A stretch of DNA of 64,000 nucleotides from NCBI GenBank assembly GCA_963520985.1, contig CAUQTA010000004.1, positions 76,017-140,016 on the forward strand, written 5' to 3'. The stretch is from an uncultured Sphingobacteriales bacterium (GTDB lineage Bacteria; Bacteroidota; Bacteroidia; Cytophagales; 172606-1). Below the pieces are notes generated by a model, which was given only the letters and a program-made list of their open reading frames with translations, did not search any database and was not told the origin of the DNA. Below, piece by piece: positions 836-62,949 of this stretch (positions are counted from its first letter, which is position 1; each line of letters begins with the position of its first letter). The position numbers were made by a program, and so were the translations under genes.

Positions 836-1004
836 ATGAGATTGTATGGAATTGATGGGTAGCAGTGTCTTTTGGCGAAAGTCTTCGCGCAAACTCACGG
901 CTTTTGTATTTGGATAGGGTTTTCCAACTGGAAAAACTGCTGTAAAGACGCGATGATCTCTGCAAGAAGACAGAGGAAATAGGATCTCTGAAGAAAGCAA
1001 ACCC
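836..1004. repeat. ~165-bp dispersed repeat, copy 1 (inverted relative to 2325-2490)
   Basis: Reverse complement aligns with 2325-2490; includes an exact 28-bp match (849-876 vs 2451-2478) and ends in a copy of the 28-bp motif. Confidence 0.85.
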
Positions 1005-1349
1005 CATTCCTCTGTGTAATCTGCAAGAAAATCGGGCACGCCGATTTACGCAGATAAAAAATAGTATCTCTACAAAAGGCAAAACCTGCCTGCTTGCTAA
1101 TCCTAAATCATCACTATTTACAAGCTGCCAACTTGTTTGTTAATAGTGCCGATTTTTTTGCCAGACTGATGTTGCCCCAACCGAAGCCGGAATCTTACAA
1201 CACGTTTTTATCGGCTTTGTCCGGACTCTCCCCAAGTGGTTATTTTTTACAAATTAGTGAAAAAACAAACCTACCCCTGACATACCATTGTCACAACCCG
1301 GTTTCATATTGCGGCTCAACTGTTATGTTTCACCTTTATTTTCTTGCTT

Positions 1350-2210
1350 ATGAACCTAATCACAGGAGGAACCGGCCAGGTCGGTTCGGCTTTAGCCAAT
1401 GCTCTTTTGGAGAAGGGCCAGCCGGTAACCATCATTTCCCGAAGCTCGAAAGCCGCTGGCAAGTGGCAAGCCCTTGGGGCACAGTGGGCCGTTGCCGATG
1501 TATATGATACACCGGCTTTGCATGAAATTTTCAAAACTGCCCAGTCGGTGTTTCTGCTCAATCCGCCTGCAGACCCGATGACAAATACATCGGTACAGGA
1601 GCGAAAAACGGCGTCGTCGTTAGTCGAAGCGTTGCGCGGAACGGACGTTAAAAAAGTGGTGGTGGCATCCACACTGGGCGCACAGCCTGGTGAGAACATG
1701 GGTGATCTGAGTGTGCTCTATGAACTGGAGCAAGCCGTTGCAACACTGCCTTGTCATTACAGCATTATCCGCTCGGCCTATTACCTGAGTAATTGGGCGG
1801 CTTCACTGGCAACTGCCAGAGAGAGCGGAGTTGTTTTCTCGTTTTTTCCGGCAGAGATGAAATTACCCATGGTAGCCCCGCAAGACATCGGTGAACTGGC
1901 GGCCTCGCTGATGATGGAAAACAATGCACCACGGTTAACTGCCATTCAAACACCTCAGATGTATTCAGCTACGGATGTTGCCTCAGTGTTTGCCCAAGTA
2001 CTCCAAAAGCCGGTGACTGTCAACGCAATACCCCGGGAGGCTTTAGTGGAAACGTTCCAGTTGCTGGGTTTTTCTCTGCCGGCAGCCGTGTCTTATGCGC
2101 GCATGACCGAACGAACCATTGATCATCCGGACATCCCTTCAGACTATGTGATGGGCAAAACCAGCTTGGAGGAGTATATCCGTGCTTTGGTAACAAAAGA
2201 AGACGTGTAA
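1350..2210 (+). CDS. NmrA-like / atypical SDR NAD(P)H-binding protein
   Basis: N-terminal Rossmann motif ITGGTGQVG; PMVAPQDIGELAA motif of NmrA-like SDRs; ATG at 1350 preferred over TTG at 1344. Confidence 0.85.
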   Translation: MNLITGGTGQVGSALANALLEKGQPVTIISRSSKAAGKWQALGAQWAVADVYDTPALHEIFKTAQSVFLLNPPADPMTNTSVQERKTASSLVEALRGTDVKKVVVASTLGAQPGENMGDLSVLYELEQAVATLPCHYSIIRSAYYLSNWAASLATARESGVVFSFFPAEMKLPMVAPQDIGELAASLMMENNAPRLTAIQTPQMYSATDVASVFAQVLQKPVTVNAIPREALVETFQLLGFSLPAAVSYARMTERTIDHPDIPSDYVMGKTSLEEYIRALVTKEDV

Positions 2211-2324: not shown

Positions 2325-2490
2325 GGTTTTGCCTCTGGAAAAGATACTATTTTTGTCTTCCCGTAGCGATCTTCGCGCATTTACAGTGGTATTCCCCATT
2401 GGAAAAAATGCATCCGATAGTGAAAACTCTGAGTTTGCGCGAAGATTTTTGCCAAAAGACACTGCTACCCATCAATTCAAAACCATCTCA
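2325..2490. repeat. ~165-bp dispersed repeat, copy 2 (inverted relative to 836-1004)
   Basis: See copy 1; starts with the 28-bp motif at 2325-2352. Confidence 0.85.
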
Positions 2491-2959
2491 CTGCCTGAAA
2501 ATGGAATTTGAATGGGTTGATTTTAGAAAAATAGTATTTTTTCAATCCTGAAACCTGCCTGAATAGCTAAAAATACAGGCAGGTCTTTTTCAATTCTGGC
2601 ACCAAAACTAGAATTAACCCATGTTTAAACGATCTCTGAGAGGCTCTGAAAATAAAAGCAACTATTTTCGTGAGGCGATCCTGCTGGAATGGGACACGTT
2701 TTTAGCCGAAAGGCAGGTTTTGAGCTTTTAAAACATACTATTTTTATTCTTAAAAACGACTGGATAAAATTTCAGACCGCCTCCAGGAGGCAAAACCTTT
2801 TCGGATGCGAAGTGTGCAGAATCATAATCGGCCGGGACGACCGTTTTGAAAAATACTGGTTTTCAGGGATTGATTCGGCTTGCTTGCGGCTGTAGTTTTG
2901 TTAGGTGGATGATTGCCTTGTTCAATCATTTTTTTGACAAACCCTAACAGCTAAATTGT

Positions 2960-3388: not shown

Positions 3389-3482
3389 CTGTGCGTTGAT
3401 TTAAACAAGAGCAGGCATTTACCGCTTATCAATAGAATGGAGCAATGGCCGGTTTTTGCTTTTTAAAGCATACCATTTTAGC

Positions 3483-3835: not shown

Positions 3836-3889
3836 TCTATTCGCCAACTCTCGTCTTCTTTTTATGTAAAATAGTATTCTAATAAATGA

Positions 3890-3924
3890 AAAAACCTGCC
3901 AGATGCAGAATCTGACAGGTTTTT
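3890..3924 (-). terminator. Terminator of rpsA
   Basis: aaaaacctgccagat-gcaga-atctgacaggttttt hairpin just past the rpsA stop; left arm overlaps the motif at 3869-3896. Confidence 0.75.
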
Positions 3925-10094: not shown

Positions 10095-10130
10095 GCGAAA
10101 ACCTCTCTTTCAGGAGAGGTTTTCGCTTTT
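10095..10130. terminator. Terminator between convergent genes
   Basis: gcgaaaacctctc-tttcag-gagaggttttcgc 13-bp stem plus tttt; right arm is the start of the motif at 10118. Confidence 0.8.
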
Positions 10131-10158
10131 CAAAAGATACTATTTTGGAAGAACCCAG

Positions 10159-17317: not shown

Positions 17318-17394
17318 CTCTATGGCTAGCCCAATGCCGGTTTTGCCTTTCTGAAAGATACTATTTTCTTAACGCCTTGATTTAATTCGATTTT

Positions 17395-19851
17395 ATGAAG
17401 TACCGATTTTTATACTGTGTCTGCTTGTTGCTTCTCGTTTCGGCAGTGAGTTATAGCCAGCAGGTATATTGGTTTACCGAAGGGCTTGCTGCCGGTCCTT
17501 GCCATCATTACGGACGAGAGGCGCTTTACACAGACGAGTTTGCCTACCAGCTTTATACACAAACCCTGAAAACGCCACAAGCCGGGCAAGTACTAACCAC
17601 CGACAAAGATGGGAAAAACGTTGCCTGGCAATCACTGAAAGCAGATAATGAACACAAGTTCAAATCGGAACTGCCGGCAGAAGGGTACCTGTACCTGACC
17701 TACACTTCCGACAAACTGCAAACGGCACTGCTGAACGTAACCGGCCACAGCATGGTGTTTGTAAACGGCGAACCGCGTGCCGGAGATGCGTATGCTTCGG
17801 GCTGGATGAACCTGCCGGTAGCTTTAAAGAAAGGAGTCAACGAAATTTACATTCGCACAGGGACATTTTCCCGCTGGCAAGGCATTTCGGCGCGTCTGGT
17901 TTTTCCGGAAAAAACCATTGCCCTTCAAACGGAAGATGCCACGTTGCCGCACATTGTTCCCGGGCAGGATAACTCGAAACTATGGGCCGCGGTAGTAATT
18001 GCCAACACGACCAACCGGGTGCTGACTCATCTGCAAATCCGCAGCGAATTGCAAGGGCAGGTGATTACCACAAGTCTGCCGGGCATTCAAGCCCTCGCCA
18101 GCCGGAAGGTAGGTTTTCAGATCAATGCAACCAGCGCTACCCAAAAAGGCGATCATCCGGTGAAAATAGTATTGCTGGAAAACGGCAAACCCCTTGATAC
18201 GCAAGAAATTACCTTGACTGCTCCGGCGGCTGGCGAACAATACATCCAAACCTTCGTGAGCAACATAGACGGCAGCGTTCAGTATTACGCAGTTGCGCCT
18301 CAGAGCCAACCGGATGGCAAAGCTCCGGCCTTGTTTTTCTCGGTTCACGGAGCAGGTGTAGAAGCCATTGGGCAGGCCCGGGCTTACCAACCCAAAAGCT
18401 GGGGCGTACTGGTTGCTCCCACCAATCGCCGGCCACGCGGATTTAACTGGGAAGACTGGGGCCGTCTGGATGCCCTGGAAGTGTTAGACTTGGCCAAAGA
18501 GAAATTCAAACCCGATCCGGAACACATTTACTTGACCGGTCATTCCATGGGAGGGCACGGAACCTGGTACCTGGGAGCTACTTTTCCCGGCAACTGGGCT
18601 GCCATTGCGCCGTGTGCGGGCTATCCGGTATTGTCGGCCTATGGGTCGCACGACGGCAAGATTCCGGAAACAGGTACTACTCCAATGGAAAAACTGCTTT
18701 TGCGCGTGAGCAATCCCAGCAATGTCATTTCGCTGGCCTCCAATTACAAAGCATTGGGTATTTACATATTGCACGGTGATGCCGACCCAGTGGTTTCGGT
18801 CGAGTATGCCCGCAAGATGCGGAAAGTCTTGGGTGGATTCCATGCTGATTTTAGCTATTACGAATACCCCGGCGGCTCGCATTGGTATGGCAACGAAAGT
18901 GTGGACTGGAAACCCATTTTCGACTTCTTTCAGTGGCACAAGATTCCCGTGGATAGCGCGGCCCATGTCATCGATTTTACAACGGCCAACCCTGCCATTT
19001 CGGCTACCATGCATTGGGTGACGGTGGAGCAACAGGAGAAAGCCCTGGACTACAGCCGAGTTCAGTTGCAACGCAACAAAACGTCTCGCCGAATCAGCGG
19101 CAGTACCCAAAACATAACCCGCATGACCCTGAACCTGAGCAGCTTTGCGGTAAATGATACGGTAACCATTCAACTGGATAGTACCTCTATCCTGCGGCAT
19201 AGGGTAAAACAACCCGACGAGAAAATCCATCTGGTCAAGAATACAAACTGGACCGTGACTGAACCGCTGGTTGCCACACAGAAAGGTCCGCTACGGAACG
19301 GCACCTTCAAGGAGCCGTTCAACAACCGGATGGTATTTGTCTATGCCACCGGCGGTACGCCTCAGGAAAATGCCTGGGCTTACAATAAAGCCCGTTTTGA
19401 TGCTGAATCGTGGTATTACCGGGGCAACGGTGCGGTAGATGTGCTTGCCGACAAAGAGTTTGATGCAAAGAAATACAAAGATCGGGGGATAGTGCTGTAT
19501 GGCAATTCAACCACGCACAAAGCCTGGAAAACCCTGTTGGCAGGTTGCCCCATTCAGGTGAGCAAAGGGCGCATCAAAGCGGGTACCGAAGTGTATGAAG
19601 GCAATAATCTGGCGGCGTATTTTATGTGGCCCCGCGCCGATAGCAAAATAGCCTCAGTAGCCGTAATTACCGGAACTGGGCTGGAGGGCATGCGTGCCAC
19701 CGAAGCCAATCAGTATTTCAGTGGAGGCAGCGGCTTCCCTGATTTTATGATTTTCTCTACTCAAATGCTTAAAGACGGTGTTAAGGGTGTGAAAATGGCT
19801 GGCTTCTATGGCAACGACTGGCAATTGAAAACGGGAGAAATTATTAAATAA
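17395..19851 (+). CDS. Secreted multi-domain alpha/beta hydrolase (esterase or S9-like peptidase)
   Basis: Signal peptide; VHGAG, GHSMGG nucleophile elbow, HGDADPVV and GSHW catalytic-triad motifs. Confidence 0.8.
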   Translation: MKYRFLYCVCLLLLVSAVSYSQQVYWFTEGLAAGPCHHYGREALYTDEFAYQLYTQTLKTPQAGQVLTTDKDGKNVAWQSLKADNEHKFKSELPAEGYLYLTYTSDKLQTALLNVTGHSMVFVNGEPRAGDAYASGWMNLPVALKKGVNEIYIRTGTFSRWQGISARLVFPEKTIALQTEDATLPHIVPGQDNSKLWAAVVIANTTNRVLTHLQIRSELQGQVITTSLPGIQALASRKVGFQINATSATQKGDHPVKIVLLENGKPLDTQEITLTAPAAGEQYIQTFVSNIDGSVQYYAVAPQSQPDGKAPALFFSVHGAGVEAIGQARAYQPKSWGVLVAPTNRRPRGFNWEDWGRLDALEVLDLAKEKFKPDPEHIYLTGHSMGGHGTWYLGATFPGNWAAIAPCAGYPVLSAYGSHDGKIPETGTTPMEKLLLRVSNPSNVISLASNYKALGIYILHGDADPVVSVEYARKMRKVLGGFHADFSYYEYPGGSHWYGNESVDWKPIFDFFQWHKIPVDSAAHVIDFTTANPAISATMHWVTVEQQEKALDYSRVQLQRNKTSRRISGSTQNITRMTLNLSSFAVNDTVTIQLDSTSILRHRVKQPDEKIHLVKNTNWTVTEPLVATQKGPLRNGTFKEPFNNRMVFVYATGGTPQENAWAYNKARFDAESWYYRGNGAVDVLADKEFDAKKYKDRGIVLYGNSTTHKAWKTLLAGCPIQVSKGRIKAGTEVYEGNNLAAYFMWPRADSKIASVAVITGTGLEGMRATEANQYFSGGSGFPDFMIFSTQMLKDGVKGVKMAGFYGNDWQLKTGEIIK

Positions 19852-19913: not shown

Positions 19914-20193
19914 TTGTTTGCAAACAAAAATAGTAGGCTTGAAGACGCCAAAACCGGCATGCTTTTAATTCCGATCAGGCACATGTATCTGACTTACGTA
20001 TTTGAATACCGTAATTTCAATCTTGGCATTCCCATTCGACAAAACGCCAGTTCGGTGAAGCCAATCAGGGTTGAGAATAGTATCTTTTGAAAAGCAAAAA
20101 CCGACCTACCAAATAATTAGGTGTTTTCGGAACCGGAAACAAAAACGTGCAGTTAGGTTTTCTGGAAACACACCTTCAAACCCGAACCACTTT

Positions 20194-20880: not shown

Positions 20881-20936
20881 ACTACAAACGAGAGGGTTTT
20901 GCCTTTTGTGGAGATACTATTTTTGACCGGGACAGC

Positions 20937-38086: not shown

Positions 38087-38154
38087 GGTTTTCATCCGGA
38101 AATTTATACTATTTTCAACGCAGATCGCTTTTCAACAAACTTTCTGCGTTTTTT

Positions 38155-39359: not shown

Positions 39360-39567
39360 CTACTTTTCCCTGGCAACGCATGAGCTGGGTTTTGTCCTTC
39401 GAAAAGATACTATTTTTCACCTTCCTTTTGTCCTTTCCCCAACACAACTTACTTCCTTCTAGTGGTTTGGTCCTTTTTATTCATACTATTTTCCCGCAAT
39501 GGAAATGCGATGGCATTTATTTGCCTTCCTAGTCGGGTCGTTAGAGCAGGTTTTGTCTACATTATTT

Positions 39568-40822: not shown

Positions 40823-40845
40823 TTTACAAATAGTATCCTTGCTGC

Positions 40846-42320: not shown

Positions 42321-43466
42321 ATGAAAAATAGTATCTTTTTTCTAACCAAAACCGGCTTCTGTTTGCTTGTGTCAGCGGCATTGCTTACCGCCTGTGACAA
42401 CAGCGATGACGTAACCAAACAACCCTTGGTGATCCCGACCACCTACGACGGAGCTACTTTTGATGCCAATACCACCAACCAGAAAGCCGTAACCGCGCAG
42501 TTGAAAAGCATTACCGACGAAGCTAAAAAAGGCCGGGTAAATGGGACGACTGTTTCCGGAACTACCTTAACCAATCTGTTTACAACCGGAAATCCCAGTC
42601 TGAAAAGCGTTTCTACCACTTACTATGCCGGAAAGCTGGAAGGCGATGCAGGCTGGTTGGCTGAACTGGCAAAAGCCAGCGGCGGCAGTTACACTCCCGG
42701 AACACCAACCGGCGAAGGCGGCACTTTTGGCGGCTATCTGTTTGACGAAAACGGACTGGAAATGGAGCAACTGATCGAGAAAGGTCAGTTTGGAGCCGTC
42801 TTGTACAAACATGCCACCGAGTTGCTGTCGGGCACCCGCACACCCGCCACCGTTGATCAGGTAATGGCCATCATGGGCACTAATCCTACCTTTCCAAGCA
42901 GCAACGATGCCACCAAACACGACAAACCGGATGCATTTGCGGCCGTTTATGCAGCCCGCCGGGACAAAAACGATGGAAACGGATATTACAGTCAGTTGAA
43001 AAACAACTTCATCAAATTACAAGCCACCATCAAAGCCGGCGATGATTACAAACAAGAGCAGGACGAAGCCATTGCTGCCATCAAATTGACCTGGGAAAAA
43101 GTGAATGCCGCCACCGTGATTAACTATTGCCACGCGGTAACCACAACCATGAGCAAGACCAGCCCAACCGATGCCGAAAAAGCCAGTGCCTTGCACGCCT
43201 ACGGTGAATGTGTGGGATTCATTCACGGCTGGCGCACCATCGCTCAGGACCAGAAGAAGATTACCGACGCACAGATTGATGAAATCTTGACGCTGCTCAA
43301 TGCCCCTGCTACGGGTACGCCTACGTCTTATAAATTCATCACCGATCCGGTAACGGAGCTTCCGAAATTAACGCAGGTAATAGACAAGTTAAAAACCATC
43401 TACGGTTTTACAGATTCTGAAATAGAAGACTTTAGAAAAAACTGGGTCACTGAACAAGCCCGTTAA
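42321..43466 (+). CDS. DUF4856-like lipoprotein
   Basis: Lipobox LTAC; ENGLEMEQLIEKG and ALHAYGECVGFI; usual partner of imelysins in Bacteroidota. Confidence 0.7.
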   Translation: MKNSIFFLTKTGFCLLVSAALLTACDNSDDVTKQPLVIPTTYDGATFDANTTNQKAVTAQLKSITDEAKKGRVNGTTVSGTTLTNLFTTGNPSLKSVSTTYYAGKLEGDAGWLAELAKASGGSYTPGTPTGEGGTFGGYLFDENGLEMEQLIEKGQFGAVLYKHATELLSGTRTPATVDQVMAIMGTNPTFPSSNDATKHDKPDAFAAVYAARRDKNDGNGYYSQLKNNFIKLQATIKAGDDYKQEQDEAIAAIKLTWEKVNAATVINYCHAVTTTMSKTSPTDAEKASALHAYGECVGFIHGWRTIAQDQKKITDAQIDEILTLLNAPATGTPTSYKFITDPVTELPKLTQVIDKLKTIYGFTDSEIEDFRKNWVTEQAR

Positions 43467-43536
43467 CAAACCAACAGACGTCCCTCTGCATACGGAGGGA
43501 CTTTTGCCTTTTTTATCCTACTATTTTACATTTCCT

Positions 43537-45370: not shown

Positions 45371-45450
45371 AGAACAGTTGCCCCCTCTGTGTGAGGGGTT
45401 TTTCATTTTCGCAGGATACTATTTTACAGCGGCACAATGAAAATGCAGGT

Positions 45451-46827
45451 ATGTTGACAAAACCCTTTCCAACCCAAGAAACCAAGGTTGATTTCCGTTG
45501 GCTGCAAGCGTTGATCCGGCCCGTGTCGGCGGCTCCGTTTGTTACCTTTCGGATTGTGTTTGGCGCATTAATGGCCTTCAGTGCTTTGCGCTTTATGGCT
45601 TTGGGATGGATTGAAGACCACTATGTGCAGCCGTTGTTCCATTTCAAGTACTACGGCTTTGAATGGGTGCCCGTGCTTCCGGCAGTTTGGCTGTATGTGA
45701 TTCATGGTATAATGGTAATCAGTGCCTTGTGTGTAATGGTGGGTTTTGGGTATCGGCTGGCTACTATTTGTCTATTTTTGTGCTTTACCTATACGGAACT
45801 CCTCGACCTGACCTATTACCTCAATCACTACTATTTTGTCAGCCTGGTTTGTCTGCTGTTGGTGCTCATGCCGCAACCTTCCCGGCTTTCTGCATCGGGC
45901 GAGGCGGTGATTCCGGCCTGGGTGATTAGCGTCATCAAACTGCAATTGGCCATTGTGTACACCTACGCCGGACTGGCGAAAATTAATCACGACTGGCTGA
46001 TCGGAGGGCTGCCCTTGAAAATATGGCTGCCCGCCAACGATGCTTGGCCTTTGATCGGCGGGGTATTTCGCTGGAAACCACTGCCTTATTTGTTTGCCTG
46101 GCTGGGAATGCTCTACGACTGTACCATTGTATTCTGGTTGTCTTGGCGCAAAACTCGGTGGCTTGCCTATGCTTCGGTGGTGTTTTTCCATGTCATTACC
46201 GGATTGATGTTTCAGATCGGCGTGTTTCCGCTGGTGATGATCGGTGCAACGCTGATCTTTTTCTCTGAAGAATGGCATAAGAAAGCTGCCAATTTTTTTG
46301 CAATGTTGGTCGGTAAAGCAGGGAAGAGTAACAGAAAAATAGTATCTGCCAGCGAGGCGAAACCCCTCTCTCTAGCTTGGCAAAAAAGCACTCTGGCATT
46401 TTTGGCCATATTTTTTCTGTTTCAGCTTTTGTTTCCGTGGCGGTATTTGCTTTATCCGGGCAATTTGTTCTGGACCGAAGAAGGCTACCGGTATTCGTGG
46501 CGGGTGATGCTGATGGAAAAAGCCGGAACCGCTACGTTTTACGTGAGCGATGCCCGTTCAAAGCGGGAATGGGAAGTGGTCAATACCGAATTTCTCAACG
46601 CGCACCAGGAAAAGCAAATGGCCATGCAACCCGACATGATTTTGCAGTACGCCCATTTTCTGGCAAGCGAATACGCCAAACGTGGCGTGCACAAACCCAA
46701 AGTCAGAGCCGAAGTGTATGTGACGCTTAATGCCCGCCCCAGCCGATTATTAATTAGGCCTGACGTAGATTTGGCGCAGATAGAGGACGGTTGGGAACCG
46801 AAAACCTGGATATTGCCAGACCAGTAG
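45451..46827 (+). CDS. HTTM-domain protein, vitamin K-dependent gamma-carboxylase-like
   Basis: FRIVFG, FHFKYYGFEWV, YLNHYY, YAGLAKINHDWL, EEGYRYSWRVMLMEK and QPDMILQYAH. Confidence 0.88.
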   Translation: MLTKPFPTQETKVDFRWLQALIRPVSAAPFVTFRIVFGALMAFSALRFMALGWIEDHYVQPLFHFKYYGFEWVPVLPAVWLYVIHGIMVISALCVMVGFGYRLATICLFLCFTYTELLDLTYYLNHYYFVSLVCLLLVLMPQPSRLSASGEAVIPAWVISVIKLQLAIVYTYAGLAKINHDWLIGGLPLKIWLPANDAWPLIGGVFRWKPLPYLFAWLGMLYDCTIVFWLSWRKTRWLAYASVVFFHVITGLMFQIGVFPLVMIGATLIFFSEEWHKKAANFFAMLVGKAGKSNRKIVSASEAKPLSLAWQKSTLAFLAIFFLFQLLFPWRYLLYPGNLFWTEEGYRYSWRVMLMEKAGTATFYVSDARSKREWEVVNTEFLNAHQEKQMAMQPDMILQYAHFLASEYAKRGVHKPKVRAEVYVTLNARPSRLLIRPDVDLAQIEDGWEPKTWILPDQ

Positions 46828-49412: not shown

Positions 49413-49546
49413 AAATAGTATCCCTTAAAAAGGGAAAACCCCTCTGCATAGATCTACGAGAAATTTTGGCACGCAGTTCCTCACAGATATAATAGGGTTG
49501 AACAACGCAAAACCGGCCTGCTTAATAATCCTAAACAGTTACTATA
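49413..49546 (+). repeat. ~135-bp dispersed repeat homologous to 977-1118
   Basis: Motif, then ctctg..atct.c.agaaa..ggcacgc..cagata.aa, then gcaaaacc.gcctgctt..taatcctaaa..actat, in the same order at both loci. Confidence 0.7.
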
Positions 49547-49793: not shown

Positions 49794-50444
49794 TTAATGA
49801 ATGATTTCTCTGCTGTCAAATTGATCTCCCCAGCCTTCACTTTTATTAAATTCAAATTTTTCAAATTGATCGATGTCAGGAAGATTCACTTCATGTTTAT
49901 TCATAATATCAATTATTTGTGTCAAGTACTTAAAGCTTTGTCCTTTTTTCTCAACTTTACCATAAAGGTCTGCTGTACCGACATCAAAGATTAAGTCTAT
50001 TACTTCTTTAATATCTTGATGAGCATTAGAATATAGATTTTTCAATTGATAAAAAATCTCGCCGCTTACATATGTATAGTTTGACTCAATATAATTTTCA
50101 AATTCCAGAATAGAGCTGGGAGTGTATTCCACTACTCTTGCTTGCCAATCATCTAAATATTCAATGGTTGTATAGTTCCAAAACTCCTCAAGTACCAAAT
50201 GCCAATCTAACTTTTCCATTTTAAGCTTTTCGACCAGCTTATTTAGACTGTAGATTGTAAACGCAACTCTCCCCCGAATCGAGATGTTCACTAATTTATT
50301 TAAAATATAAATGGATCGTTCTTTGTATTTTCTTTTCCTGATTATTCGAAATCTCCATCTACTATAAAAAGAAAAAATAATAGGTTTTGGATTTCCAAAA
50401 CCTATTATTTTTTTCAGTACTATCAAAATTCGATTAGTCGCCAT
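49794..50444 (-). CDS. Hypothetical AT-rich protein (true start probably downstream of 50375)
   Basis: 216-aa ORF; its first ~25 codons cross a terminator-like palindrome; first internal ATG at 50219. Confidence 0.55.
50372..50413. terminator. Palindromic terminator built from two overlapping inverted motif copies
   Basis: aaaaaataataggttttgg-attt-ccaaaacctattatttttt (19-bp stem) just after the TIGR00266-like gene stop. Confidence 0.8.
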
Positions 50445-51435: not shown

Positions 51436-51841
51436 AATTGTATTGTTTGCAAGTTCGTAACACTCAGAAAAATAGTATCTTTTGGAAAGTAAAAACCCCG
51501 TGCCTGTGTATAAACCTCATCCCCCAGCTCCCTCTCTTTTGAGAAGGGGAGAGGCATTGGTTCAATATAAATGTAGCCTTCTAATGAATTCAAGTTGCGC
51601 GTTATGTGATGTTGGTTCTAATACTTTTACATTCCTGTATTTGTCACATCTTTTCTTTCGTTGCTTGTCCAAAGAAAGAAACAAAGAAAAGACACTTTGC
51701 TTAATGCTTCCGCCCGCAAACCCAACCCGCCCCTCGCTAAGCAATGAACCCTAGGCTCTTTTTTCTATCTGGTGCTGCGCACTGCACCTTATTCATTATA
51801 TCACACAACTCGAATTAAGTAGCGAGTATTTTGAGGCGTTT

Positions 51842-53407: not shown

Positions 53408-53884
53408 GTAATTGGTATGTGAATGTTGGAATGCAAATTCAATGCCTTCCGATTGAAAAATAGTATCTGCAAAAAGGCAAAAACCTCCTGGTGCATTCTG
53501 GCGACAAAACTACAAAATTAGCGAGCAGGAACGAAGCGAAAAAAGCGGAAGTGTAAAAAACGGAAACCGCCTCCTAATTGGCTGATTTTTACACGAATGC
53601 AAAATTTGCGCTAAAATTGGTAAATCGGATGGCAACGCAAATGAAGATAAGAATCGGCTAAAAAGCGAAATTTCTTCTGATTTTTTAAAAATGGAGTGAG
53701 TTGTATAATTCTAATACATATATCATGTGAAAAACTCACTCTTTGATACACAGGTTTGATAACGGTAAGCCAGGTTCGTTTCCCACTGAAGAAATCGTTG
53801 AGGTTTGGATTGTCAATAAGAAGAACGCACTTTTTTACGGTAGTTTTTGATTTTTTATCTAAATTGACCGCGATTTCTACAGTT

Positions 53885-53931
53885 TTCGCACTTTGAATGT
53901 TACTATCTATAGTACACATTCAAAGTGCGAA
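53885..53931. repeat. Long hairpin upstream of the T9SS cargo gene
   Basis: ttcgcactttgaatgt / acattcaaagtgcgaa 16-bp perfect arms plus inner tacta/tagta. Confidence 0.8.
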
Positions 53932-55084: not shown

Positions 55085-55803
55085 TCAGAATGCATTCGGG
55101 TAGCTGCCTGTACGCATGGAATTACCTTTTGGGGCTGGCAATGGTTGAGCCCGGCACCCCAACTGGCATTAAACTCCAGCACAAACCAGCCTCGACTATC
55201 GGCATAGGCTACATCAATGGCAAACGTGGCGGGCAATTCAGAGACATTTGTCAGAAAATCGTTTACAAAATCCTGAGCTTCCGGCAACGAGCCGTTTCCT
55301 TCATACAGGGCTATGTCCTGTAACTGGTTATGCAATACGAATCCGCGTGCTTCTGCCTCAATGGTTATTATTTCCGAAACCAACACCTGTGTATCGGGAG
55401 CGAGTCCATTTGTCTGATCCTGTAATTCTTGCTGATTTTGGTAAACCTGCGCTTTAAACTGTTTGGGTACCAGCGGTTTGATAAACACAGGAAACCACTC
55501 AGCCGAAATTTGATTGAGCGAATGAAGACTAAGATTTCGTTTTGTCCACTTCCTGTCCAATTGCAGGAGCAAGTCATCGTTTGGCGAAACCAGTTGCAGA
55601 TCCAGAATCTGGGCTACAATCAGGGCAAAGGTGTCGTTGCCATAAATGGAAATTGTATGATTTGGTGGCAGGATGGGTTTTTCCCAGAAACGGTCAAGCT
55701 TCATCACCGTGCCGCCCAGTTGTTGCCAAGCTTCGGCTACCGAGCCTCGCTCCGTATCGGCTTTTTGTGGGATCAGCAATAATGCATTTGCCAGGTTTTT
55801 CAT
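55081..55803 (-). CDS. ATP-grasp domain protein (R2K/DUF4343-like)
   Basis: PVFIKP..PKQF, LVSE, EARGFV, AIDVA and VLEFNASWGAGL. Confidence 0.75.
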   Translation of the reverse strand: MKNLANALLLIPQKADTERGSVAEAWQQLGGTVMKLDRFWEKPILPPNHTISIYGNDTFALIVAQILDLQLVSPNDDLLLQLDRKWTKRNLSLHSLNQISAEWFPVFIKPLVPKQFKAQVYQNQQELQDQTNGLAPDTQVLVSEIITIEAEARGFVLHNQLQDIALYEGNGSLPEAQDFVNDFLTNVSELPATFAIDVAYADSRGWFVLEFNASWGAGLNHCQPQKVIPCVQAATRMHSD

Positions 55804-56007
55804 TTTGTAGGGATACTATTTCTATGTAGCACAAAAAGGCGAGATGTAAACGGTATGGGAAAAAAGCTATTTGTGCAAAAGTTGGTAAAAAAAAGCACCT
55901 TTGGTCTATTTCGTATAGAATTCCGGCTAAAAGTAGCCCGCATTCAATCCGATTAGTGATTTTTGTTCATTGATTTTCCTTTTTTGACGCTTTACACGCC
56001 ACACCTT

Positions 56008-57204
56008 ATGAAAAAACTGATTCTCTTTGTGGGGATTTATCTCATTGCCTTCCAGGCACAAAGCCAGACCATTGACGTAAAAAAGCAGTTTGACTTAGCC
56101 GCCCAGCAATATGCCCTTATGTTGAAGTCGCACCCCGATTTGACGAAATTTCCGCAATCCTCCAATGCCGACGGATCGCCGCGCGACATGAAGTCGGAAT
56201 GGTGGTGCAGCGGCTTTTTTGGCGGTTCGCTGTGGTATCTGTACGAATACACCAAAGACCCCAAATGGAAAGATGCCGCCCATACCTGGACCATGGCCGT
56301 GGAAAAGGAGAAAGACAACACCACTACGCATGACCTGGGTTTCATGTTATACTGTCCGTTTGGCAATGGCTATCGGCTCACCAAAAACGAAGCCTATAAG
56401 GATATTATGCTCACTGGAGCAAAGTCGTTGTCCACCCGTTTTCATCCCGAGTATGGTGTGATTAAGTCGTGGGAAAAGTTTGCTACCTATGACTATCCCG
56501 TCATTGTCGACAATATGATGAACCTGGAATTCTTGTTCTGGGCCGCACGTACGTCCGGTAACCAGGACTTTTACAAAATCAGCGTTGCACACGCCGATAG
56601 CACGATCAAGTTTCACTACCGTCCCGACCACAGCAGCTACCATGTGGTTTGTTACGGACCTCACGGACAGATACAAGCCCGCAAAACCGCGCAAGGTTAC
56701 GCCGATGAGTCGGCCTGGGCACGCGGACAAGCCTGGGGATTGTATGGATATACCGTAATGTACCGTGAAACTAAAGACGCCAAGTACCTCAAACAAGCCG
56801 AAGACATTGCCGATTTTATTCTCAATCATCCGAATTTGCCCAAAGACAAAATTCCGTACTGGGACTACAATGCGCCTAACATTCCGAATGAGGAACGCGA
56901 CGCATCAGCAGCGGCCATTACCGCTTCGGCATTGCTGGAACTGGCAGATTATTCCAAGAAAAGCGATACGTATGTTAAAAATGCTACCGAGATTCTGAAA
57001 AATTTGTCGACACCCGCTTATCTGGCACCCATTGGCAAAAACAACAATTTCATTCTGATGCACAGCGTGGGCCACAAACCCGCCAAATCGGAAGTGGATG
57101 TGCCGCTGGTGTACGCCGATTATTATTACCTGGAAGGATTGCTGCGATATGATAAACGCATGAAAAGCAAGCCTGCCAAAGGCAAAGCATCGCCGGGAAA
57201 ATAG
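56008..57204 (+). CDS. Glycoside hydrolase family 88 (unsaturated glucuronyl hydrolase)
   Basis: WCSGFFGGSLW, THDLGF, VIVDNMMNLE, SAWARGQAWGLYG, RDASAAAI and YADYYYLE. Confidence 0.93.
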   Translation: MKKLILFVGIYLIAFQAQSQTIDVKKQFDLAAQQYALMLKSHPDLTKFPQSSNADGSPRDMKSEWWCSGFFGGSLWYLYEYTKDPKWKDAAHTWTMAVEKEKDNTTTHDLGFMLYCPFGNGYRLTKNEAYKDIMLTGAKSLSTRFHPEYGVIKSWEKFATYDYPVIVDNMMNLEFLFWAARTSGNQDFYKISVAHADSTIKFHYRPDHSSYHVVCYGPHGQIQARKTAQGYADESAWARGQAWGLYGYTVMYRETKDAKYLKQAEDIADFILNHPNLPKDKIPYWDYNAPNIPNEERDASAAAITASALLELADYSKKSDTYVKNATEILKNLSTPAYLAPIGKNNNFILMHSVGHKPAKSEVDVPLVYADYYYLEGLLRYDKRMKSKPAKGKASPGK

Positions 57205-57247
57205 TAGGTTTTCAAACATGAAAACCTCGGTATGAAATTCACTCTTC

Positions 57248-57275
57248 AAAAAGCCCGTTTCGAAGCGGGCTTTTT
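57248..57275 (+). terminator. Intrinsic terminator after the GH88 gene
   Basis: aaaaagcccgtttcgaagcgggcttttt; right arm overlaps the motif at 57269. Confidence 0.8.
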
Positions 57276-57382
57276 CGTTTTCCGGAGATACTATTTTCAG
57301 AAGCAAATCAGGATAAATACTCCGGGCTTTTGGTTTTAGTGTCGTTTATCGTATTTTTAAAAACCTCTACCGACGATGTGCG

Positions 57383-59378: not shown

Positions 59379-60022
59379 AGCCGGCTAAGGTGTAGCTTGA
59401 CAAAGTGCCTGGGTTTTACGTTTTCAAAAGATGCTATTTTACACGGGTTCGGAATCGACGACAGAATCATCAAGCCATTGGCTTGATCGCACACAAATCA
59501 GACTAGTAAGAAAAAATTCAAGGTACGATTTTTCTTGCTGGTTTCTTTGTCTACGTGCTTATGTTGAAATTCCTTATTCTCCCCAATGTTAGTTTTCTGA
59601 AATCAGGTTTGCTATTCCGCCCCCTGATTCCGGGTTTTGACAGCTCTTATCGGTCATTCTTCCTTTTTTTATTGAACGTCTTTCACATAATCTGTTTTTT
59701 GCACCGTGCAAAGTAAAACTGAAATAATACACGAAAAAGTAGGAATATTTGGGGTTATGGTGCTATTTTGACTTACTTCTATCTGACACAACCAGGAACG
59801 GCAATCCCTTACTGAAAGGGATTGTTCATACGGATTGAGGAAGTGCAGACCATACAAAAAACAAAAACGCTGTACGTTACGTATCCGCGGGTAAGAAAAT
59901 AGTAGGTTTTCAAACAGCAAAACCTCCCTTGCTCGAAAGACAAAACGCAGCGCTGTAAAATTCTCAATTGGTAGTTACGAAAGAGGTTGCCTGTCGGTGA
60001 CCTGCAAACACAGAATTAACTC

Positions 60023-62800
60023 ATGTTGCATTCTTTACCGGCTCTGCGGCAAACCATGCTTGTCGGAGCAATTGCGTTGGTGTGGCTGATGGGGTGTCGT
60101 CCCACACAGCAAGCCCAACAAGCACCTTCTGTTCAAACGGCTTCCATTGATACCACCGCCCGCACAAACCTGCCCGCAGGCGTGAACCCCGACGACCCCG
60201 ACTGGAAGGGGGCCGATCTGGAACCCAAACCGGCAGTGCATCCGCTGTCGCCCACCGACGAAAATTCCCGGTTCTTACTTCCGCCGGGCTACCGCATTCA
60301 GCCTATTCTGACCGAACCTCAGATTGAGCAACCCGCCGCCATTGCCTTTGATGCCAACGGCCGCATGTATGTGCTGGAACTGCGTACGTACATGCTCACC
60401 GCTGATTCGGATGACGAACTGCGACCCTGGAGCCGCATTTCACGGTGGGAGGACCGCGACAACGACGGCATATACGAAACGGGAACCGTCTTTGTGGATA
60501 GCCTGGTGTTTCCGCGTTTTGTACTGCCCTATGGTAAAGACTGCATCCTTTCCATGGAATCCGATGCGGATAACGTCTATAAATACACTGATACCGACGG
60601 CGACGGCAAAGCCGATAAAAAGGAGTTTTTTACCAACAAATACGGTCGGTCGGGCAATGTGGAGCACCAGCAGGCCTTCCTGCATTGGGGCATGGACAAC
60701 TGGCTTTACAGCACCGTGAATGCCTTCCGGATTCGGGAAACACCCAATGGAATGGTGCGCGAAAAAACCGGCTTCAACCGGGCTCAGTGGGGACTCACGC
60801 ATGACGATGAAGGCAAATTGTGGTTTCAGGGTGGGGCCAGCGGGTTGCCTTCGTATTTTCAGTTTCCGATTCACTACGGCAATTTTGAAGTAAAAGGCGA
60901 ATTCGCTCCTGGTTTTGATGTGCCCTGGGGCGAAGCCATTCGTCTGGCTGACGTTCAGGGCGGAATGGACGAAGTGCGTCAGCCCGACGGTTCCTTGAAG
61001 CGGGTAACCGGTTCGGCGGGAAACGATGTGTTTCGGGGCGACCGGCTGCCAGCCCAACTGAGGGGACAGTATTTCTACGGCGAACCCGTTGCCCGCATTG
61101 TGCGTCAGGTGAATCCGGTGGTGACCGATGGCCTGACTACCTTACACAACGTGTATCAGGATCAGCAATCCGAGTTCCTGCGTTCTTCCGACCCACTTTT
61201 CCGGCCAGTGGATATGACTACCGCCCCCGATGGGACACTGTACATTACCGACATGTATCACGGCATCATTCAGGAAGGACAATGGACACAGAAAGGTTCG
61301 TATTTACGGGCCAAGATCGAACAATACAAACTGGACAAAGTGGTAGGTTTGGGACGCATCTGGCGCATTACCTATGAAGGCATGCCACGCGATACCACCC
61401 ATCCGCGCATGTATACCGACAAATCGGCCAGGCTGGTCAAATACCTGGAGCATCCCAATGGCTGGTGGCGCGATGCCGCCCAGCAGGAACTGGTGCAGCG
61501 CAACGACCGTTCAGTGGTGGCCTCCTTGACGACAATGGCACTGAGCCACAAGAATCCACTGGCGCGAATCCATGCTTTGTGGACGCTGGAAGGCATGGGA
61601 GCCTTGAAAACCAGTCTGGTACGGAAACTGTTGAACGATACGGAACCAAAACTGCGCATCCAGGCATTGCGTGCCAGTGAACAACTTTACAAAGCAGGCG
61701 ACAAATCACTGGAAGCCGATTACCACAAAGCCCTTTCTGATGCCCATACCGATGTGCGGGTGCAAGCCATGCTGACGGCAAAATTTGTGCAGCTGCCCAA
61801 CCTCGAAAAAGGAATTCAGACGGCCATGGCTAGCAGTTCTGCCGCCGGGGTGAAACTCATCGGCGAACAGATCCTGGCTCCACCCAAATCCAGAAACACG
61901 GGACCATTCGGCGGTGCTGAACTGACCGATGCCCAGAAAGCCCAGCTGGAACACGGGGCGCAGATTTACAACGAGCTTTGCTCGCAATGCCACGGCAATA
62001 CGGGAATGGGCACCCCGGCTGGAAATGGTCGATTACTTGCTCCTCCGCTGGCTAGCTCGGGTCGCATCCAGGCGCATCCCGAATACGCCATTCGGGTGGT
62101 GTTGCACGGACTGGAAGGCGCCATCGAAGGCAAGACCTATGCCGGAGGGATGATGGCCAGCATGCAGGAACAACCCGACCAATGGATTGCCGATGTGCTT
62201 TCGTACATCCGCAACGGCTTGTCCAATGAGGCATCGCTGGTTTCGCCGCAGCAAGTGGCCCTGGTGCGCCAAAAGACTGCAACTCAGAAAGGCTCGTACC
62301 AGTATGGTTCCTTGGTGAAACAAGTGCCCTACGAAGTACCGGCCCAATCGTTGGTAGCCACTGCCAGCCACACCGTAGCGACACGCATCGGGGGCAATGC
62401 ATCAGCTGCCAGCGCGTTTTCGTACGAAGGATGGTCTACCGGGGGCAAACAGGAAAAAGGCATGTGGTACCAGGTTGAGTTTCCGAAGGAAGTAAGTCTT
62501 TCCGAATTGCATTTCACCGCCTTGCAAAACATCCGCAAAGGATGGCGGCCTACACCAGGTGTATCTAGCCCGCCCCCGATCATTCAGGCCTATCCGCGAA
62601 CCTTTACGGTTTCGGTCTCCACCGATGGCACGCACTGGCAGCAAATCGCAACCGATGCCAAAGGCGTTGCCGGTGACAATATCCTTTTGCTGAACGGCAG
62701 CAAGGCCCGTTACCTGAAATTGATCCTGAACGAAAGCGTACCTGCCGATCCCGACGAAGTTCCTTGGTCAATGCGGCAAATGAAAGTGTTTGTACAATGA
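60023..62800 (+). CDS. PVC-type membrane-bound dehydrogenase-like lipoprotein (beta-propeller, HEAT repeats, cytochrome c, F5/8-like domain)
   Basis: Lipobox LMGC; AFDANGRMYVLE, FRPVDMTTAPDGTLYITDMY, HPNGWWRDAAQ, CSQCH; C-terminal discoidin-like VSTDGTHW. Confidence 0.85.
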   Translation: MLHSLPALRQTMLVGAIALVWLMGCRPTQQAQQAPSVQTASIDTTARTNLPAGVNPDDPDWKGADLEPKPAVHPLSPTDENSRFLLPPGYRIQPILTEPQIEQPAAIAFDANGRMYVLELRTYMLTADSDDELRPWSRISRWEDRDNDGIYETGTVFVDSLVFPRFVLPYGKDCILSMESDADNVYKYTDTDGDGKADKKEFFTNKYGRSGNVEHQQAFLHWGMDNWLYSTVNAFRIRETPNGMVREKTGFNRAQWGLTHDDEGKLWFQGGASGLPSYFQFPIHYGNFEVKGEFAPGFDVPWGEAIRLADVQGGMDEVRQPDGSLKRVTGSAGNDVFRGDRLPAQLRGQYFYGEPVARIVRQVNPVVTDGLTTLHNVYQDQQSEFLRSSDPLFRPVDMTTAPDGTLYITDMYHGIIQEGQWTQKGSYLRAKIEQYKLDKVVGLGRIWRITYEGMPRDTTHPRMYTDKSARLVKYLEHPNGWWRDAAQQELVQRNDRSVVASLTTMALSHKNPLARIHALWTLEGMGALKTSLVRKLLNDTEPKLRIQALRASEQLYKAGDKSLEADYHKALSDAHTDVRVQAMLTAKFVQLPNLEKGIQTAMASSSAAGVKLIGEQILAPPKSRNTGPFGGAELTDAQKAQLEHGAQIYNELCSQCHGNTGMGTPAGNGRLLAPPLASSGRIQAHPEYAIRVVLHGLEGAIEGKTYAGGMMASMQEQPDQWIADVLSYIRNGLSNEASLVSPQQVALVRQKTATQKGSYQYGSLVKQVPYEVPAQSLVATASHTVATRIGGNASAASAFSYEGWSTGGKQEKGMWYQVEFPKEVSLSELHFTALQNIRKGWRPTPGVSSPPPIIQAYPRTFTVSVSTDGTHWQQIATDAKGVAGDNILLLNGSKARYLKLILNESVPADPDEVPWSMRQMKVFVQ

Positions 62801-62949
62801 CCAGGCTTGCAAAAAGATCATCTTTAGGGGCGCATTTATCCCTAAGATCAGCGGTCCGAAATAGTATCTCCCAAAAAGCAAAAACCTGCCTTTGTATTCT
62901 CAACAACGTAACGATCTTTTTAACACCACAACCTTAACACAAATCAAGT

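What the first reader, a model, noticed from the sequence alone, without database searches (positions are those of the whole stretch)
977..62886. Abundant 28-bp bipartite motif AAATAGTA-N14-AAAACC, about one per 1.6 kb: candidate undescribed DNA-recognition system
Seen: about 41 copies found by eye, 26 matching all 14 fixed bases; 19 in plus and 22 in minus orientation (coordinates under features). The spacer is exactly 14 bp, and only the degenerate copies at 977 and 2529 could alternatively be read as 13. Its sequence varies but tends to TCT-nnnn-AAAA-nnn. A rough base-composition estimate gives about 10^-3 exact matches expected by chance in 64 kb. Copies lie upstream of genes, inside operons, between convergent genes (10118, 20895, 25038, 33173, 49413) and inside ORFs. 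They flank both housekeeping (gltX, rpsA, lspA) and accessory genes, so an ordinary regulon or promoter does not explain them. Inference: fixed spacing with a free spacer points to a protein reading two patches of duplex DNA about two helical turns apart. Candidates: (a) a DNA-uptake-sequence analogue, since the Pasteurellaceae USS is also a ~30-bp core plus phased A/T tracts enriched in terminators; (b) a nucleoid or chromosome-organising protein site; (c) a tyrosine-recombinase site, since 28 bp is the length of dif/pdif and the minus form starts with GGT, though the dyad symmetry is weak. No cognate protein gene is evident in this window.
Basis: partly seen in the sequence, partly recalled or inferred. 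Interest (0 to 1): 0.92.

Follow-up and report, generated by a model that had tools for sequence, protein, structure and literature searches.

The report
Hyperabundant 28-bp bipartite genome motif
A soil Cytophagales bacterium carries thousands of copies of one strict 28-base two-part DNA word, kept in place even inside genes, which most resembles the "self-recognition" DNA uptake sequences known so far only from Haemophilus and Neisseria relatives.

Summary
AAATAGTA-N14-AAAACC occurs 27 times exactly in the window, with 0 expected. It occurs 3074 times in the 7.2-Mb genome, or about 4,750 times allowing for degenerate copies. The spacer is almost always 14.

Both orientations are equally common. 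82% of copies are intergenic, with about one per intergenic region, often abutting stop codons or forming the base of terminator hairpins.

It is not a promoter, REP/RAYT element, MITE, RNA structure or Xer site. Copies arise by point substitution, not insertion.

9 of 16 intragenic copies sit at the identical position in a distant congener (G004). That genome uses a CAAACC dialect that turns Lys-Thr into Gln-Thr.

The closest relatives (G003, G005) and 395 other genomes of the order lack the motif, as do several probably foreign contigs.

Best reading (about 0.4): an uptake-sequence-like self-recognition word on duplex DNA, kept up by molecular drive. Main rival (about 0.3): a selected site for a chromosome-architecture protein. 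No cognate protein was found, and G000 has no secretin or pilus ATPase.

The parts
1059..1086 (+). exact copy, upstream of NmrA-like gene
2325..2352 (-). exact copy, downstream of NmrA-like gene
2716..2743 (-). exact copy, intergenic
3869..3896 (+). exact copy 57 nt past the rpsA stop (rpsA on -); its GGTTTT is the 3' arm/T-tract of a terminator hairpin
10118..10145 (-). exact copy between convergent carbonic anhydrase and ECF sigma genes, 13 nt past the sigma gene's stop
17339..17366 (-). exact copy between SusD-like and S9 peptidase genes, downstream of a separate terminator hairpin
19928..19955 (+). exact copy (GG-type spacer) after peptidase gene
20895..20922 (-). exact copy between convergent GNAT and response-regulator genes, 14 nt from each stop
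23193..23220 (-). exact copy upstream of/at called 5' end of histidine kinase ORF
25038..25065 (-). exact copy, probably between convergent ORFs
26989..27016 (-). exact copy 7 nt past stop of MBL-fold gene
27767..27794 (-). exact copy between L-PSP and MBL-fold genes
30503..30530 (+). exact copy inside M14 peptidase ORF
33173..33200 (-). exact copy between convergent lspA and ORF 33195-34073, overlapping the latter's stop
38087..38114 (-). exact copy starting at the base after a gene's stop codon
39388..39415 (-). exact copy, tandem with 39464
40828..40855 (+). exact copy between imelysin and DHOR genes
42326..42353 (+). exact copy between DHOR and DUF4856 genes
45397..45424 (-). exact copy between YceI and HTTM genes
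45742..45769 (-). exact copy inside HTTM ORF
49413..49440 (+). exact copy after TonB-dependent receptor gene
51470..51497 (+). exact copy between AIM24 gene start and gltX end
53458..53485 (+). exact copy 50 nt from gltX start
55794..55821 (-). exact copy at called 5' end of ATP-grasp ORF
57199..57226 (+). exact copy whose TAG (p4-6) is the stop codon of the GH88-like gene ending at 57204; faces 57269 across 42 bp
59897..59924 (+). exact copy (GG-type spacer), upstream of DUF7133 gene
62859..62886 (+). exact copy between two co-directional genes
3451..3478 (-). one-mismatch copy
18164..18191 (+). one-mismatch copy inside peptidase ORF
20075..20102 (+). one-mismatch copy
25646..25673 (+). one-mismatch copy inside ORF
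29000..29027 (+). one-mismatch copy inside M14 peptidase ORF
31590..31617 (+). one-mismatch copy starting right after a stop codon
32265..32292 (-). one-mismatch copy
35028..35055 (+). one-mismatch copy (CAAACC form) inside GntR-aminotransferase ORF
36872..36899 (-). one-mismatch copy
38919..38946 (+). one-mismatch copy inside ORF
39464..39491 (-). one-mismatch copy (CAAACC form)
46337..46364 (+). one-mismatch copy inside HTTM ORF
50375..50402 (+). one-mismatch copy, overlaps its mirror copy at 50383 (36-bp palindrome)
50383..50410 (-). one-mismatch copy, mirror of 50375
57269..57296 (-). one-mismatch copy facing 57199
59412..59439 (-). one-mismatch copy
977..1004 (+). two-mismatch copy (probable)
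   Evidence: about 0.7 such hits expected by chance in the window
2529..2556 (+). two-mismatch copy (probable)
43499..43526 (-). two-mismatch copy (probable)
49487..49514 (+). two-mismatch copy (probable)
53881..53908 (-). two-mismatch copy (doubtful)

Best explanation
The motif is (A)AAATAGTA-tctttnnaaaagnc-(A/C)AAACC. It is a genus-specific recognition word read on duplex DNA by a protein, or protein pair, that has not been identified. It is kept at about 4,750 places in this chromosome by a force that acts on the DNA sequence itself, not on the neighbouring genes.

The most likely force is the one that maintains DNA uptake sequences (Pasteurellaceae USS, Neisseriaceae DUS). Cells preferentially take up, or recombine, DNA fragments that carry the word. 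Point mutations toward the consensus therefore spread through the population and mutated copies are converted back (molecular drive). Copies accumulate wherever they are tolerated: right after stop codons, in terminator stems, between convergent genes, and in permissive codons.

Shown: abundance, rigid geometry, duplex reading, origin by substitution, long-term site conservation with a dialect, absence from the sister lineage and from probably foreign contigs.

Inferred: that biased uptake or recombination is the force, and that a dedicated receptor exists.
For: 1. Abundance and sharpness. There are 3074 exact copies, 1282 with one mismatch and 624 with two. The reversed-pattern control gives 1, 20 and 227. 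Spacer 14 occurs 3074 times, against 44 for 13 and 65 for 15.

2. Excess information. Unbiased lower bounds are 9.6 bits (left half), 6.8 (spacer), 8.4 (right half) and 1.0 (p29-32), about 26 bits in total. Only 11.6 bits are needed to specify 4,750 sites. Such excess is expected under drive and is not needed for simple site selection.

3. Orientation and spacing. The orientations are equal (1509 vs 1565). Spacing is more even than random (gap CV 0.89; 317 gaps under 200 bp vs 526 expected). Intragenic copies lie farther from their neighbours than random positions in the same gene (659 vs 578 nt, p=1e-16).

4. Occupancy follows tolerance. Among regions of at least 60 bp, about 76% of convergent, 53-70% of co-directional and 31-63% of divergent regions hold a copy, mostly one per region. 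3258 of 5729 genes have a copy within 300 nt past the stop, and 213 use the motif's TAG as their stop codon.

5. Terminator association, as in USS/DUS. AAAACC/GGTTTT forms the stem base. 48 facing pairs lie 40-59 bp apart. Hairpin plus T-run is found at 26.7% of motif-bearing gene ends vs 15.0% of others, and 360 of 627 such terminators overlap the motif.

6. Origin by substitution. 378 exact copies lie deep inside ORFs, in all five stop-free frames. In 22 of 28 alignments with G003/G004 orthologs the motif stretch has no gap.

7. Site conservation with dialect. 9 of 16 intragenic G000 copies have 12-13 of 13 fixed bases at the identical position in G004, although the spacers differ. None of 12 reaches 12 in G003. 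G004 uses CAAACC (p23 C 67%), which gives KT->QT and GF->GL in orthologous proteins.

8. Dispensable and lineage-bound. With p23 left free, counts are G000 3297, G002 2448, G004 2332, G001 155, G003 10 and G005 9. The other 395 genomes of the order have at most 5. The rpsA tree places G000 as sister to the motif-free G003/G005. 400 kb of G003 shows no replacement motif.

9. Absent from probably foreign DNA. Contigs C11, C12, C21 and C28 and several islands have 0-4 copies per 100 kb, against 48-78 on most other contigs (C20, half desert, 25.5).

10. Literature match. Passages read in PMC2817400 and PMC3630211 describe the same traits for USS/DUS: even spacing, both orientations, under-representation in ORFs, dyad pairs in terminators, absence from genes without homologs, and dialects that change encoded residues.
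Against: - No competence phenotype is known for this clade.
- G000 (100% complete) has no secretin and no T2SSE/PilB-type ATPase, the apparatus that carries the known DUS receptor.
- ComEC, DprA and ComEA-like genes are present alike in motif-rich and motif-free genomes. No gene pattern supports uptake.
- A 28-bp word with a rigid 14-bp spacer differs from the 9-12-bp cores of USS/DUS.
- Only 12-18% of copies are in ORFs, against 34.5-65% for USS/DUS (table heading seen).
- The roughly one-per-region pattern and the closeness to stop codons would equally fit a selected boundary function.
- There is a mild replication-strand bias (45:55 vs 56:44, Spearman -0.45). I could not check this against USS/DUS.
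- Co-occupancy of syntenic intergenic regions in G000 and G004 (17 of 33) is close to the 15.3 I compute for independent occupancy.
Confidence: 0.42

Rival explanations
1. The motif is a binding site for a dedicated chromosomal protein (nucleoid, architectural, topological or boundary factor). Ordinary selection keeps it at nearly every gene boundary and at intervals inside long coding stretches.
For: - About one copy per intergenic region, with fewer doubles than Poisson. In co-directional regions of 100-150 bp, 419 of 644 are occupied by 437 copies; from that mean I compute about 317 for a Poisson process.
- Spacing is even.
- Individual sites are conserved in position and orientation between G000 and G004 (orientation agrees in 11 of 14; 9 of 16 intragenic sites).
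- There is a weak 10-bp A-tract periodicity on both flanks.
- There is a mild replication-strand bias.
- Plasmid-like contigs lack the motif.
Against: - The information content (at least 26 bits) is more than twice what is needed to specify the sites.
- The sister lineage G003/G005 lost all copies without a replacement motif, so any function is dispensable.
- No lineage-specific DNA-binding gene was found. There is a single HU gene in each of 5 genomes.
- Occupancy ranks with tolerance (convergent > co-directional > divergent) rather than with any one gene-end function.
Confidence: 0.3
2. The motif is a factor-dependent, bidirectional transcription terminator or insulator that stands in for intrinsic terminators at gene ends.
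For: - 57% of genes have a copy within 300 nt past the stop, peaking at 0-10 nt.
- Convergent regions are the most occupied.
- Only 22% of gene ends (867 of 3947) have a strict hairpin plus T-run.
- Terminators that do not overlap the motif are slightly rarer at motif-bearing ends (267 of 2347, 11.4%, vs 15.0%).
Against: - 378 exact copies lie deep inside ORFs and are conserved there.
- 31-63% of divergent regions of at least 60 bp carry a copy.
- tRNA genes have it upstream (22 of 53) more often than downstream (8 of 53).
- The motif is positively associated with canonical terminators.
- No RNA data could be obtained.
Confidence: 0.1
3. The motif is a mobile or copied element: a REP with a RAYT transposase, a MITE, or the end of an IS.
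For: High copy number, intergenic bias and 3'-end location resemble REPs. Intergenic regions with a copy are a median 24 nt longer in G000 than in G003, while those without are 20 nt shorter. Ascertainment can explain this difference.
Against: - No Y1_Tnp/RAYT gene in G000 (0 hits). The motif does not flank such genes as an inverted pair in G002/G004.
- No hairpin and no covariation.
- 2700 distinct spacers among 3072 copies, with unrelated flanks.
- Intragenic copies align without gaps to orthologs.
- No clean indel in three intergenic comparisons.
Confidence: 0.03
4. The motif is a promoter for the housekeeping or an alternative sigma factor, or a global transcription-factor box.
For: - The copy number is close to the number of transcription units.
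- p7-14 (TATCTTTT) resembles the Bacteroidota -7 box TAnnTTTG (consensus recalled).
- Both orientations are found 25-60 nt upstream of start codons.
Against: - There is no orientation preference toward the downstream gene (895 vs 739), and 480 copies lie between convergent genes.
- There is no conserved TTG at -33.
- Canonical TTG-N19-TAnnTTTG promoters exist separately upstream of rpsA and tRNA-Cys and are not phased with the motif.
Confidence: 0.02

Closest known systems
Neisseriaceae DNA uptake sequence (DUS) and its dialects
   Same: - Thousands of copies, about one per 1-2 kb.
- Both orientations and even spacing.
- Enriched in intergenic DNA and in terminator stems as facing pairs.
- Intragenic copies that constrain codons.
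- Clade-specific dialects that change encoded residues.
- Absent from foreign DNA.
(Passages read in PMC3630211, and PMC2817400; this genome.)
   Different: DUS is a 10-12-nt contiguous word read by the minor pilin ComP. Here the word is 28 bp with two fixed blocks and a rigid 14-bp semi-conserved spacer, the phylum is Bacteroidota, and G000 has no secretin or pilus ATPase. Uptake has not been tested.
Pasteurellaceae uptake signal sequence (USS)
   Same: An asymmetric word of about 30 bp with A/T-rich phased parts (recalled), accumulated by molecular drive through point mutation, doubling the encoded peptides (abstract and passages of PMC2817400). The ratio of perfect to one-off copies is high here too (3074:1282).
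   Different: The USS has one 9-bp core with soft flanks, and 49-65% of copies lie in ORFs. Here there are two hard blocks and only 12-18% of copies lie in ORFs.
HIP1 highly iterated palindrome of cyanobacteria (recalled, no call)
   Same: A lineage-specific word at about one per kb, made by substitution, present inside genes, with its function still debated.
   Different: HIP1 is an 8-bp palindrome linked to methyltransferases. This motif is long, asymmetric and bipartite.
REP/BIME elements with RAYT transposases (recalled)
   Same: Hundreds to thousands of intergenic copies at gene 3' ends and between convergent genes, in both orientations.
   Different: REPs are imperfect palindromes that fold and are mobilised by a Y1 transposase. 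Here there is no fold, no covariation, no Y1_Tnp in G000 and no insertion signature.

Membership tests
DNA uptake sequences (USS/DUS) | Hundreds to thousands of copies far above chance, both orientations, evenly spread | tested here: met
DNA uptake sequences (USS/DUS) | Competent cells take up or transform with motif-bearing DNA preferentially | not testable with these tools
   needs a cultured strain
DNA uptake sequences (USS/DUS) | Type IV pilus/secretin apparatus carrying the receptor | tested here: not met
   PF00263 and PF00437: 0 hits in G000. ComEC, DprA and ComEA-like genes are present but also in motif-free G003/G005
DNA uptake sequences (USS/DUS) | Accumulation by point mutation, including in ORFs, with clade dialects | tested here: met
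DNA uptake sequences (USS/DUS) | Frequent facing pairs or stems in terminators; absent from foreign DNA | tested here: met
   The foreign nature of the desert contigs was not tested
REP/RAYT | Imperfect palindrome that folds as a single strand | tested here: not met
   z -0.7 to +0.4 in 6 copies; no covariation
REP/RAYT | Cognate Y1 (IS200/IS605-like) transposase gene flanked by inverted copies | tested here: not met
   0 PF01797 hits in G000; no inverted flanking in G002/G004
Bacteroidota sigma-A promoter (-33 TTG / -7 TAnnTTTG; consensus recalled) | Fixed orientation toward the downstream gene and both boxes about 19 bp apart | tested here: not met
Intrinsic terminator | G+C-rich hairpin followed by a T-run at transcript ends | tested here: not met
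   The motif alone has no hairpin. Only 26.7% of motif-bearing gene ends have a hairpin plus T-run nearby
Xer/dif-type tyrosine recombinase site | Two inverted ~11-bp arms around a 6-8-bp core; one or few per replicon | tested here: not met
   The logo is asymmetric outside CTTTTnAAAAG; about 4,750 copies
MITE / IS terminal repeat | Insertion polymorphism with target duplication, conserved internal sequence | tested here: not met
Known RNA families (Rfam 15) | Match to a covariance model | tested here: not met
   Only a tRNA at gathering score in the window. Nothing on the motif at E<=1 in 17000-28000

The most novel reading that the evidence does not exclude
This is the first DNA uptake or self-recognition sequence system outside the Proteobacteria. 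It would be a 28-bp bipartite word read by a pilus-independent receptor in a Cytophagales genus. It is old enough to have shaped protein sequences (Lys-Thr vs Gln-Thr dialects), and its loss in one lineage erased thousands of copies.
Probability: 0.35. Interest if true: 0.9.

Novelty: new variant of a known kind. Interest (0 to 1): 0.8.

Why it matters
Sequence-specific DNA uptake is known from only two proteobacterial families. Its receptor logic (ComP; the USS receptor is still debated) and its evolutionary meaning are long-standing questions.

A third, independent case would be informative for three reasons. It has a much longer, bipartite word. It occurs in a phylum where DNA crosses the outer membrane by an unknown route. 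The genome concerned has no pilus genes. Such a case would give a direct handle on how Bacteroidota import DNA and on whether molecular drive alone can saturate a genome.

If the word instead marks gene boundaries for a chromosomal protein, it would be one of the most information-rich and pervasive architectural signals described in bacteria.

Either way the motif has practical uses. It can bin contigs of this uncultured genus, flag foreign DNA in its genomes, and guide the design of transforming DNA.

Tried and rejected
- RNA evidence. One soil metatranscriptome held 9% of the sampled words. Laid on window 1-20000, it covered only rpsA coding parts as short contigs and showed no transcript ends. 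It is uninformative.
- Rfam gave no family at the motif.
- A supposed variant word in the motif-free relatives (ACACTCTATCTTT, seen at one orthologous spot) is not repeated there: 4 copies in G003 and 2 in G005. The core pattern TATCTTTNNAAAG is not enriched in G003, G005 or G007 over its control.
- Relic test. In 58 syntenic G003 regions the best match to the motif barely exceeds column-shuffled patterns (9.40 vs 9.17 of 14; 13.9 vs 13.5 of 23). Regions without a G000 copy show the same small excess. The "remnants" I saw by eye are therefore not evidence, and gain versus loss rests on the tree and on G004 site conservation.
- Cognate protein search by family across G000, G002 and G004 versus G003 and G005. 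Y1_Tnp, ComEC, secretin, T2SSE, DprA, HHH_3/ComEA and HU were tried. None follows the motif's distribution.
- No phased canonical promoter box near the motif.
- No arrays: the largest cluster is 3 copies.
- Viral contig scan. Only single scattered hits among the 80 rows shown of at least 119 (scan truncated), and no phage with host-like density.
- Literature. Two full-text searches found no description of this motif or of uptake sequences in Bacteroidota.

Full report
**Observation.**
- The pattern AAATAGTA-N14-AAAACC has 27 exact matches in the window. None of 100 dinucleotide-preserving shuffles gave any.
- With up to two mismatches there are 48 matches, against 0.73 expected.
- The window is G000:C4:76017-140016, in a 7,200,576-base assembly of 29 contigs.
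- Genome-wide there are 3074 exact copies with spacer 14, against 44 with 13, 65 with 15 and next to none otherwise.
- The half-site AAATAGTA occurs 4252 times on both strands, so about three in four of its occurrences carry AAAACC exactly 14 bases on.
- Copies with 0, 1, 2 and 3 mismatches number 3074, 1282, 624 and 1690. The reversed pattern gives 1, 20, 227 and 2097. About 4,750 real copies exist, two thirds of them perfect.

**Anatomy.**
- The logo of 3072 copies extends the motif to A at p0 (.78) and a C-rich p29-32.
- The spacer has its own consensus, T(.90) C(.79) T T T(.70) n n A A A A g n C, but 2700 of 3072 spacers are distinct.
- Flanks are unrelated apart from a faint 10-bp A periodicity.
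- Six copies folded as single-stranded DNA score z -0.7 to +0.4.
- The two spacer halves do not covary: Watson-Crick 0.596 observed vs 0.580 expected at p12-p17, and MI <0.02 for every candidate stem pair of the two spacer halves (highest overall 0.107, p11-p14, three bases apart).
- The word is therefore read on duplex DNA. It is not a hairpin.
- Unbiased lower bounds of information are 9.6 + 6.8 + 8.4 + 1.0 bits. Only 11.6 bits are needed to specify 4,750 sites.

**Where the copies lie.** I used crude ORF calls (5745 ORFs, 83.8% coverage). In the window, 38 of the 50 ORFs have a Pfam hit.
- 2507 of 3074 exact copies are intergenic. Of these, 895 and 739 lie in the two orientations between co-directional genes, 480 between convergent genes and 393 between divergent genes.
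- Among regions of at least 60 bp, a copy (<=1 mismatch) is present in about 76% of convergent (60-150 bp), 53-70% of co-directional and 31-63% of divergent regions. There is nearly always one per region.
- 3258 of 5729 genes have a copy within 300 nt past the stop.
- In the same orientation as the gene, 213 copies supply the stop codon (TAG at p4-6) and the rest decay from 0 nt outward.
- In the opposite orientation there are peaks at 3-7 nt and at 41-48 nt.
- AAAACC is often the 5' base of a terminator stem. GGTTTT lies 6-50 nt downstream in 373 copies, against 99 in an upstream control. 48 facing pairs lie 40-59 bp apart.
- A strict hairpin plus T-run is found at 26.7% of 2347 motif-bearing gene ends and 15.0% of 1600 others. 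360 of the 627 terminators at motif-bearing ends overlap the motif.
- tRNA genes have a copy within 200 nt upstream in 22 of 53 cases and downstream in 8 of 53.

**What it is not.**
- Promoter. There is no orientation rule and no -33 box. Canonical TTG-N19-TAnnTTTG promoters stand separately upstream of rpsA and tRNA-Cys and are conserved in relatives. They are not phased with the motif.
- REP/RAYT. No fold, no covariation, and no Y1_Tnp gene in G000.
- MITE or insertion. See the next section.
- Rfam holds nothing like it.
- A dif-like site does not fit an asymmetric logo or thousands of stable copies.

**Origin and maintenance.**
- 378 exact copies lie at least 90 nt from the called start and at least 30 nt from the stop of ORFs. 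They occur in all five stop-free frames and evenly along genes.
- In 28 alignments of their host proteins with orthologs from 400 kb of G003 and 386 kb of G004, 22 show no gap across the motif. Examples are KNSIRELNKT vs KNTTAELNKI and GFGSTQATIL vs the identical peptide.
- Copies are therefore made by substitution.
- G004 has the same word at the same density (194 AAATAGTA in 386 kb) but with C at p23 in 67% of copies.
- At the nucleotide level, 9 of 16 intragenic G000 copies have 12-13 of the 13 shared fixed bases at the identical position in G004, although their spacers have diverged. In G003 the best of 12 is 11 and the rest are <=8.
- The dialect shows in proteins...KT in G000 against ...QT in G004, and GF against GL on the other strand.
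- In 33 syntenic intergenic regions, both genomes have a copy in 17, G000 only in 7, G004 only in 4, and neither in 5. Orientation agrees in 11 of 14.

**Distribution.**
- With p23 left free, counts are G000 3297, G002 2448, G004 2332, G001 155, G003 10 and G005 9. Each of 395 other genomes of the order has at most 5, like the control (exact pattern).
- An rpsA tree gives ((G002,G004),(G001,(G000,(G003,G005)))) with supports 88/92 and 93/96. This is one gene only. rpsA identities to G000 are 95, 95, 90, 85 and 84-86%.
- With the G000-G004 site conservation, this makes the word ancestral to the genus and lost in G003/G005.
- G003 shows no other over-represented word in 400 kb.
- A test for relics in G003 was inconclusive.
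- The nearest named records are uncultured Cytophagales MAGs. Spirosoma and Dyadobacter rpsA are 73-78% identical.
- Within G000, most contigs hold 48-78 copies (<=1 mismatch) per 100 kb (C20, half desert, 25.5). C11, C12, C21, C28 and a few islands hold 0-4.
- Orientation is mildly tied to GC skew: 792:957 where skew >0.01 and 402:317 where skew <-0.01.
- Gaps between copies have CV 0.89, with a deficit of short gaps.

**Interpretation.**
- A force acting on the DNA word itself creates copies by point mutation, keeps both blocks intact for very long times even at the cost of amino-acid changes, and spreads them evenly in both orientations.
- It fills tolerant DNA first. It is dispensable, because a sister lineage lost everything. 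It does not touch probably foreign replicons.
- This is the profile described for uptake sequences in the passages I read: PMC2817400 and PMC3630211.
- I therefore rank an uptake-type self-recognition word maintained by molecular drive first (0.42).
- The weak points are the missing pilus and secretin genes in G000 and competence genes that do not track the motif. The unusual bipartite geometry and the lower share in ORFs also count against it.
- A selected chromosomal protein site (0.30) explains the one-per-region pattern at least as well. It explains the excess information and the clean loss less well.
- A terminator or insulator role (0.10) conflicts with the conserved intragenic copies, the divergent-region copies and the tRNA pattern.
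- No cognate protein was identified.

Noticed in passing
G000 contigs C11, C12, C21, C28; C20:1-29224; C2:10716-61400: These are motif deserts (0-4 copies per 100 kb, against 48-78 on most other contigs), some with deviant G+C (0.50-0.57). They are probably plasmids, ICEs or other foreign DNA. C12 carries a second, short DprA-like ORF whose twin is in G003:C6.
   Followed up: partly
G000 C9:189218-195391 (outside the window): An array of 12 tRNA genes on one strand. Most are followed by a conserved ~25-nt trailer of the form GTGCCGTAg...gtTACTTCG, seen by eye. It is unexplained.
   Followed up: no
window 3720-3835 (- strand) and 5720-5790: tRNA-Cys (Rfam 58.3 bits; aragorn) has a textbook Bacteroidota promoter TTG-N19-TAATTTTG. 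A TATCTTTG box lies upstream of rpsA. Both are conserved in G001-G005.
   Followed up: partly
window 50375-50410: Two one-mismatch copies overlap head to head and form a 36-bp palindrome near the junction of ORFs 49794-50444 and 50434-51216. Genome-wide, 12 facing pairs overlap in this way.
   Followed up: partly
G001 (MAG, 72% complete): Its 155 copies sit on a subset of contigs at near-full density (5 on C40 in 15 kb, 5 on C265 in 7 kb), while the rpsA contig has none. It may be a composite bin or a mosaic genome.
   Followed up: no
G000 genome-wide: Only 867 of 3947 gene ends with at least 60 nt downstream have a strict hairpin plus T-run terminator. Gene strand shows no correlation with GC skew.
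   Followed up: no
window 10159-17249: An ECF sigma / FecR / SusC-like / SusD-like cluster spans 7 kb with no motif copy inside it. Copies sit at both of its ends.
   Followed up: no
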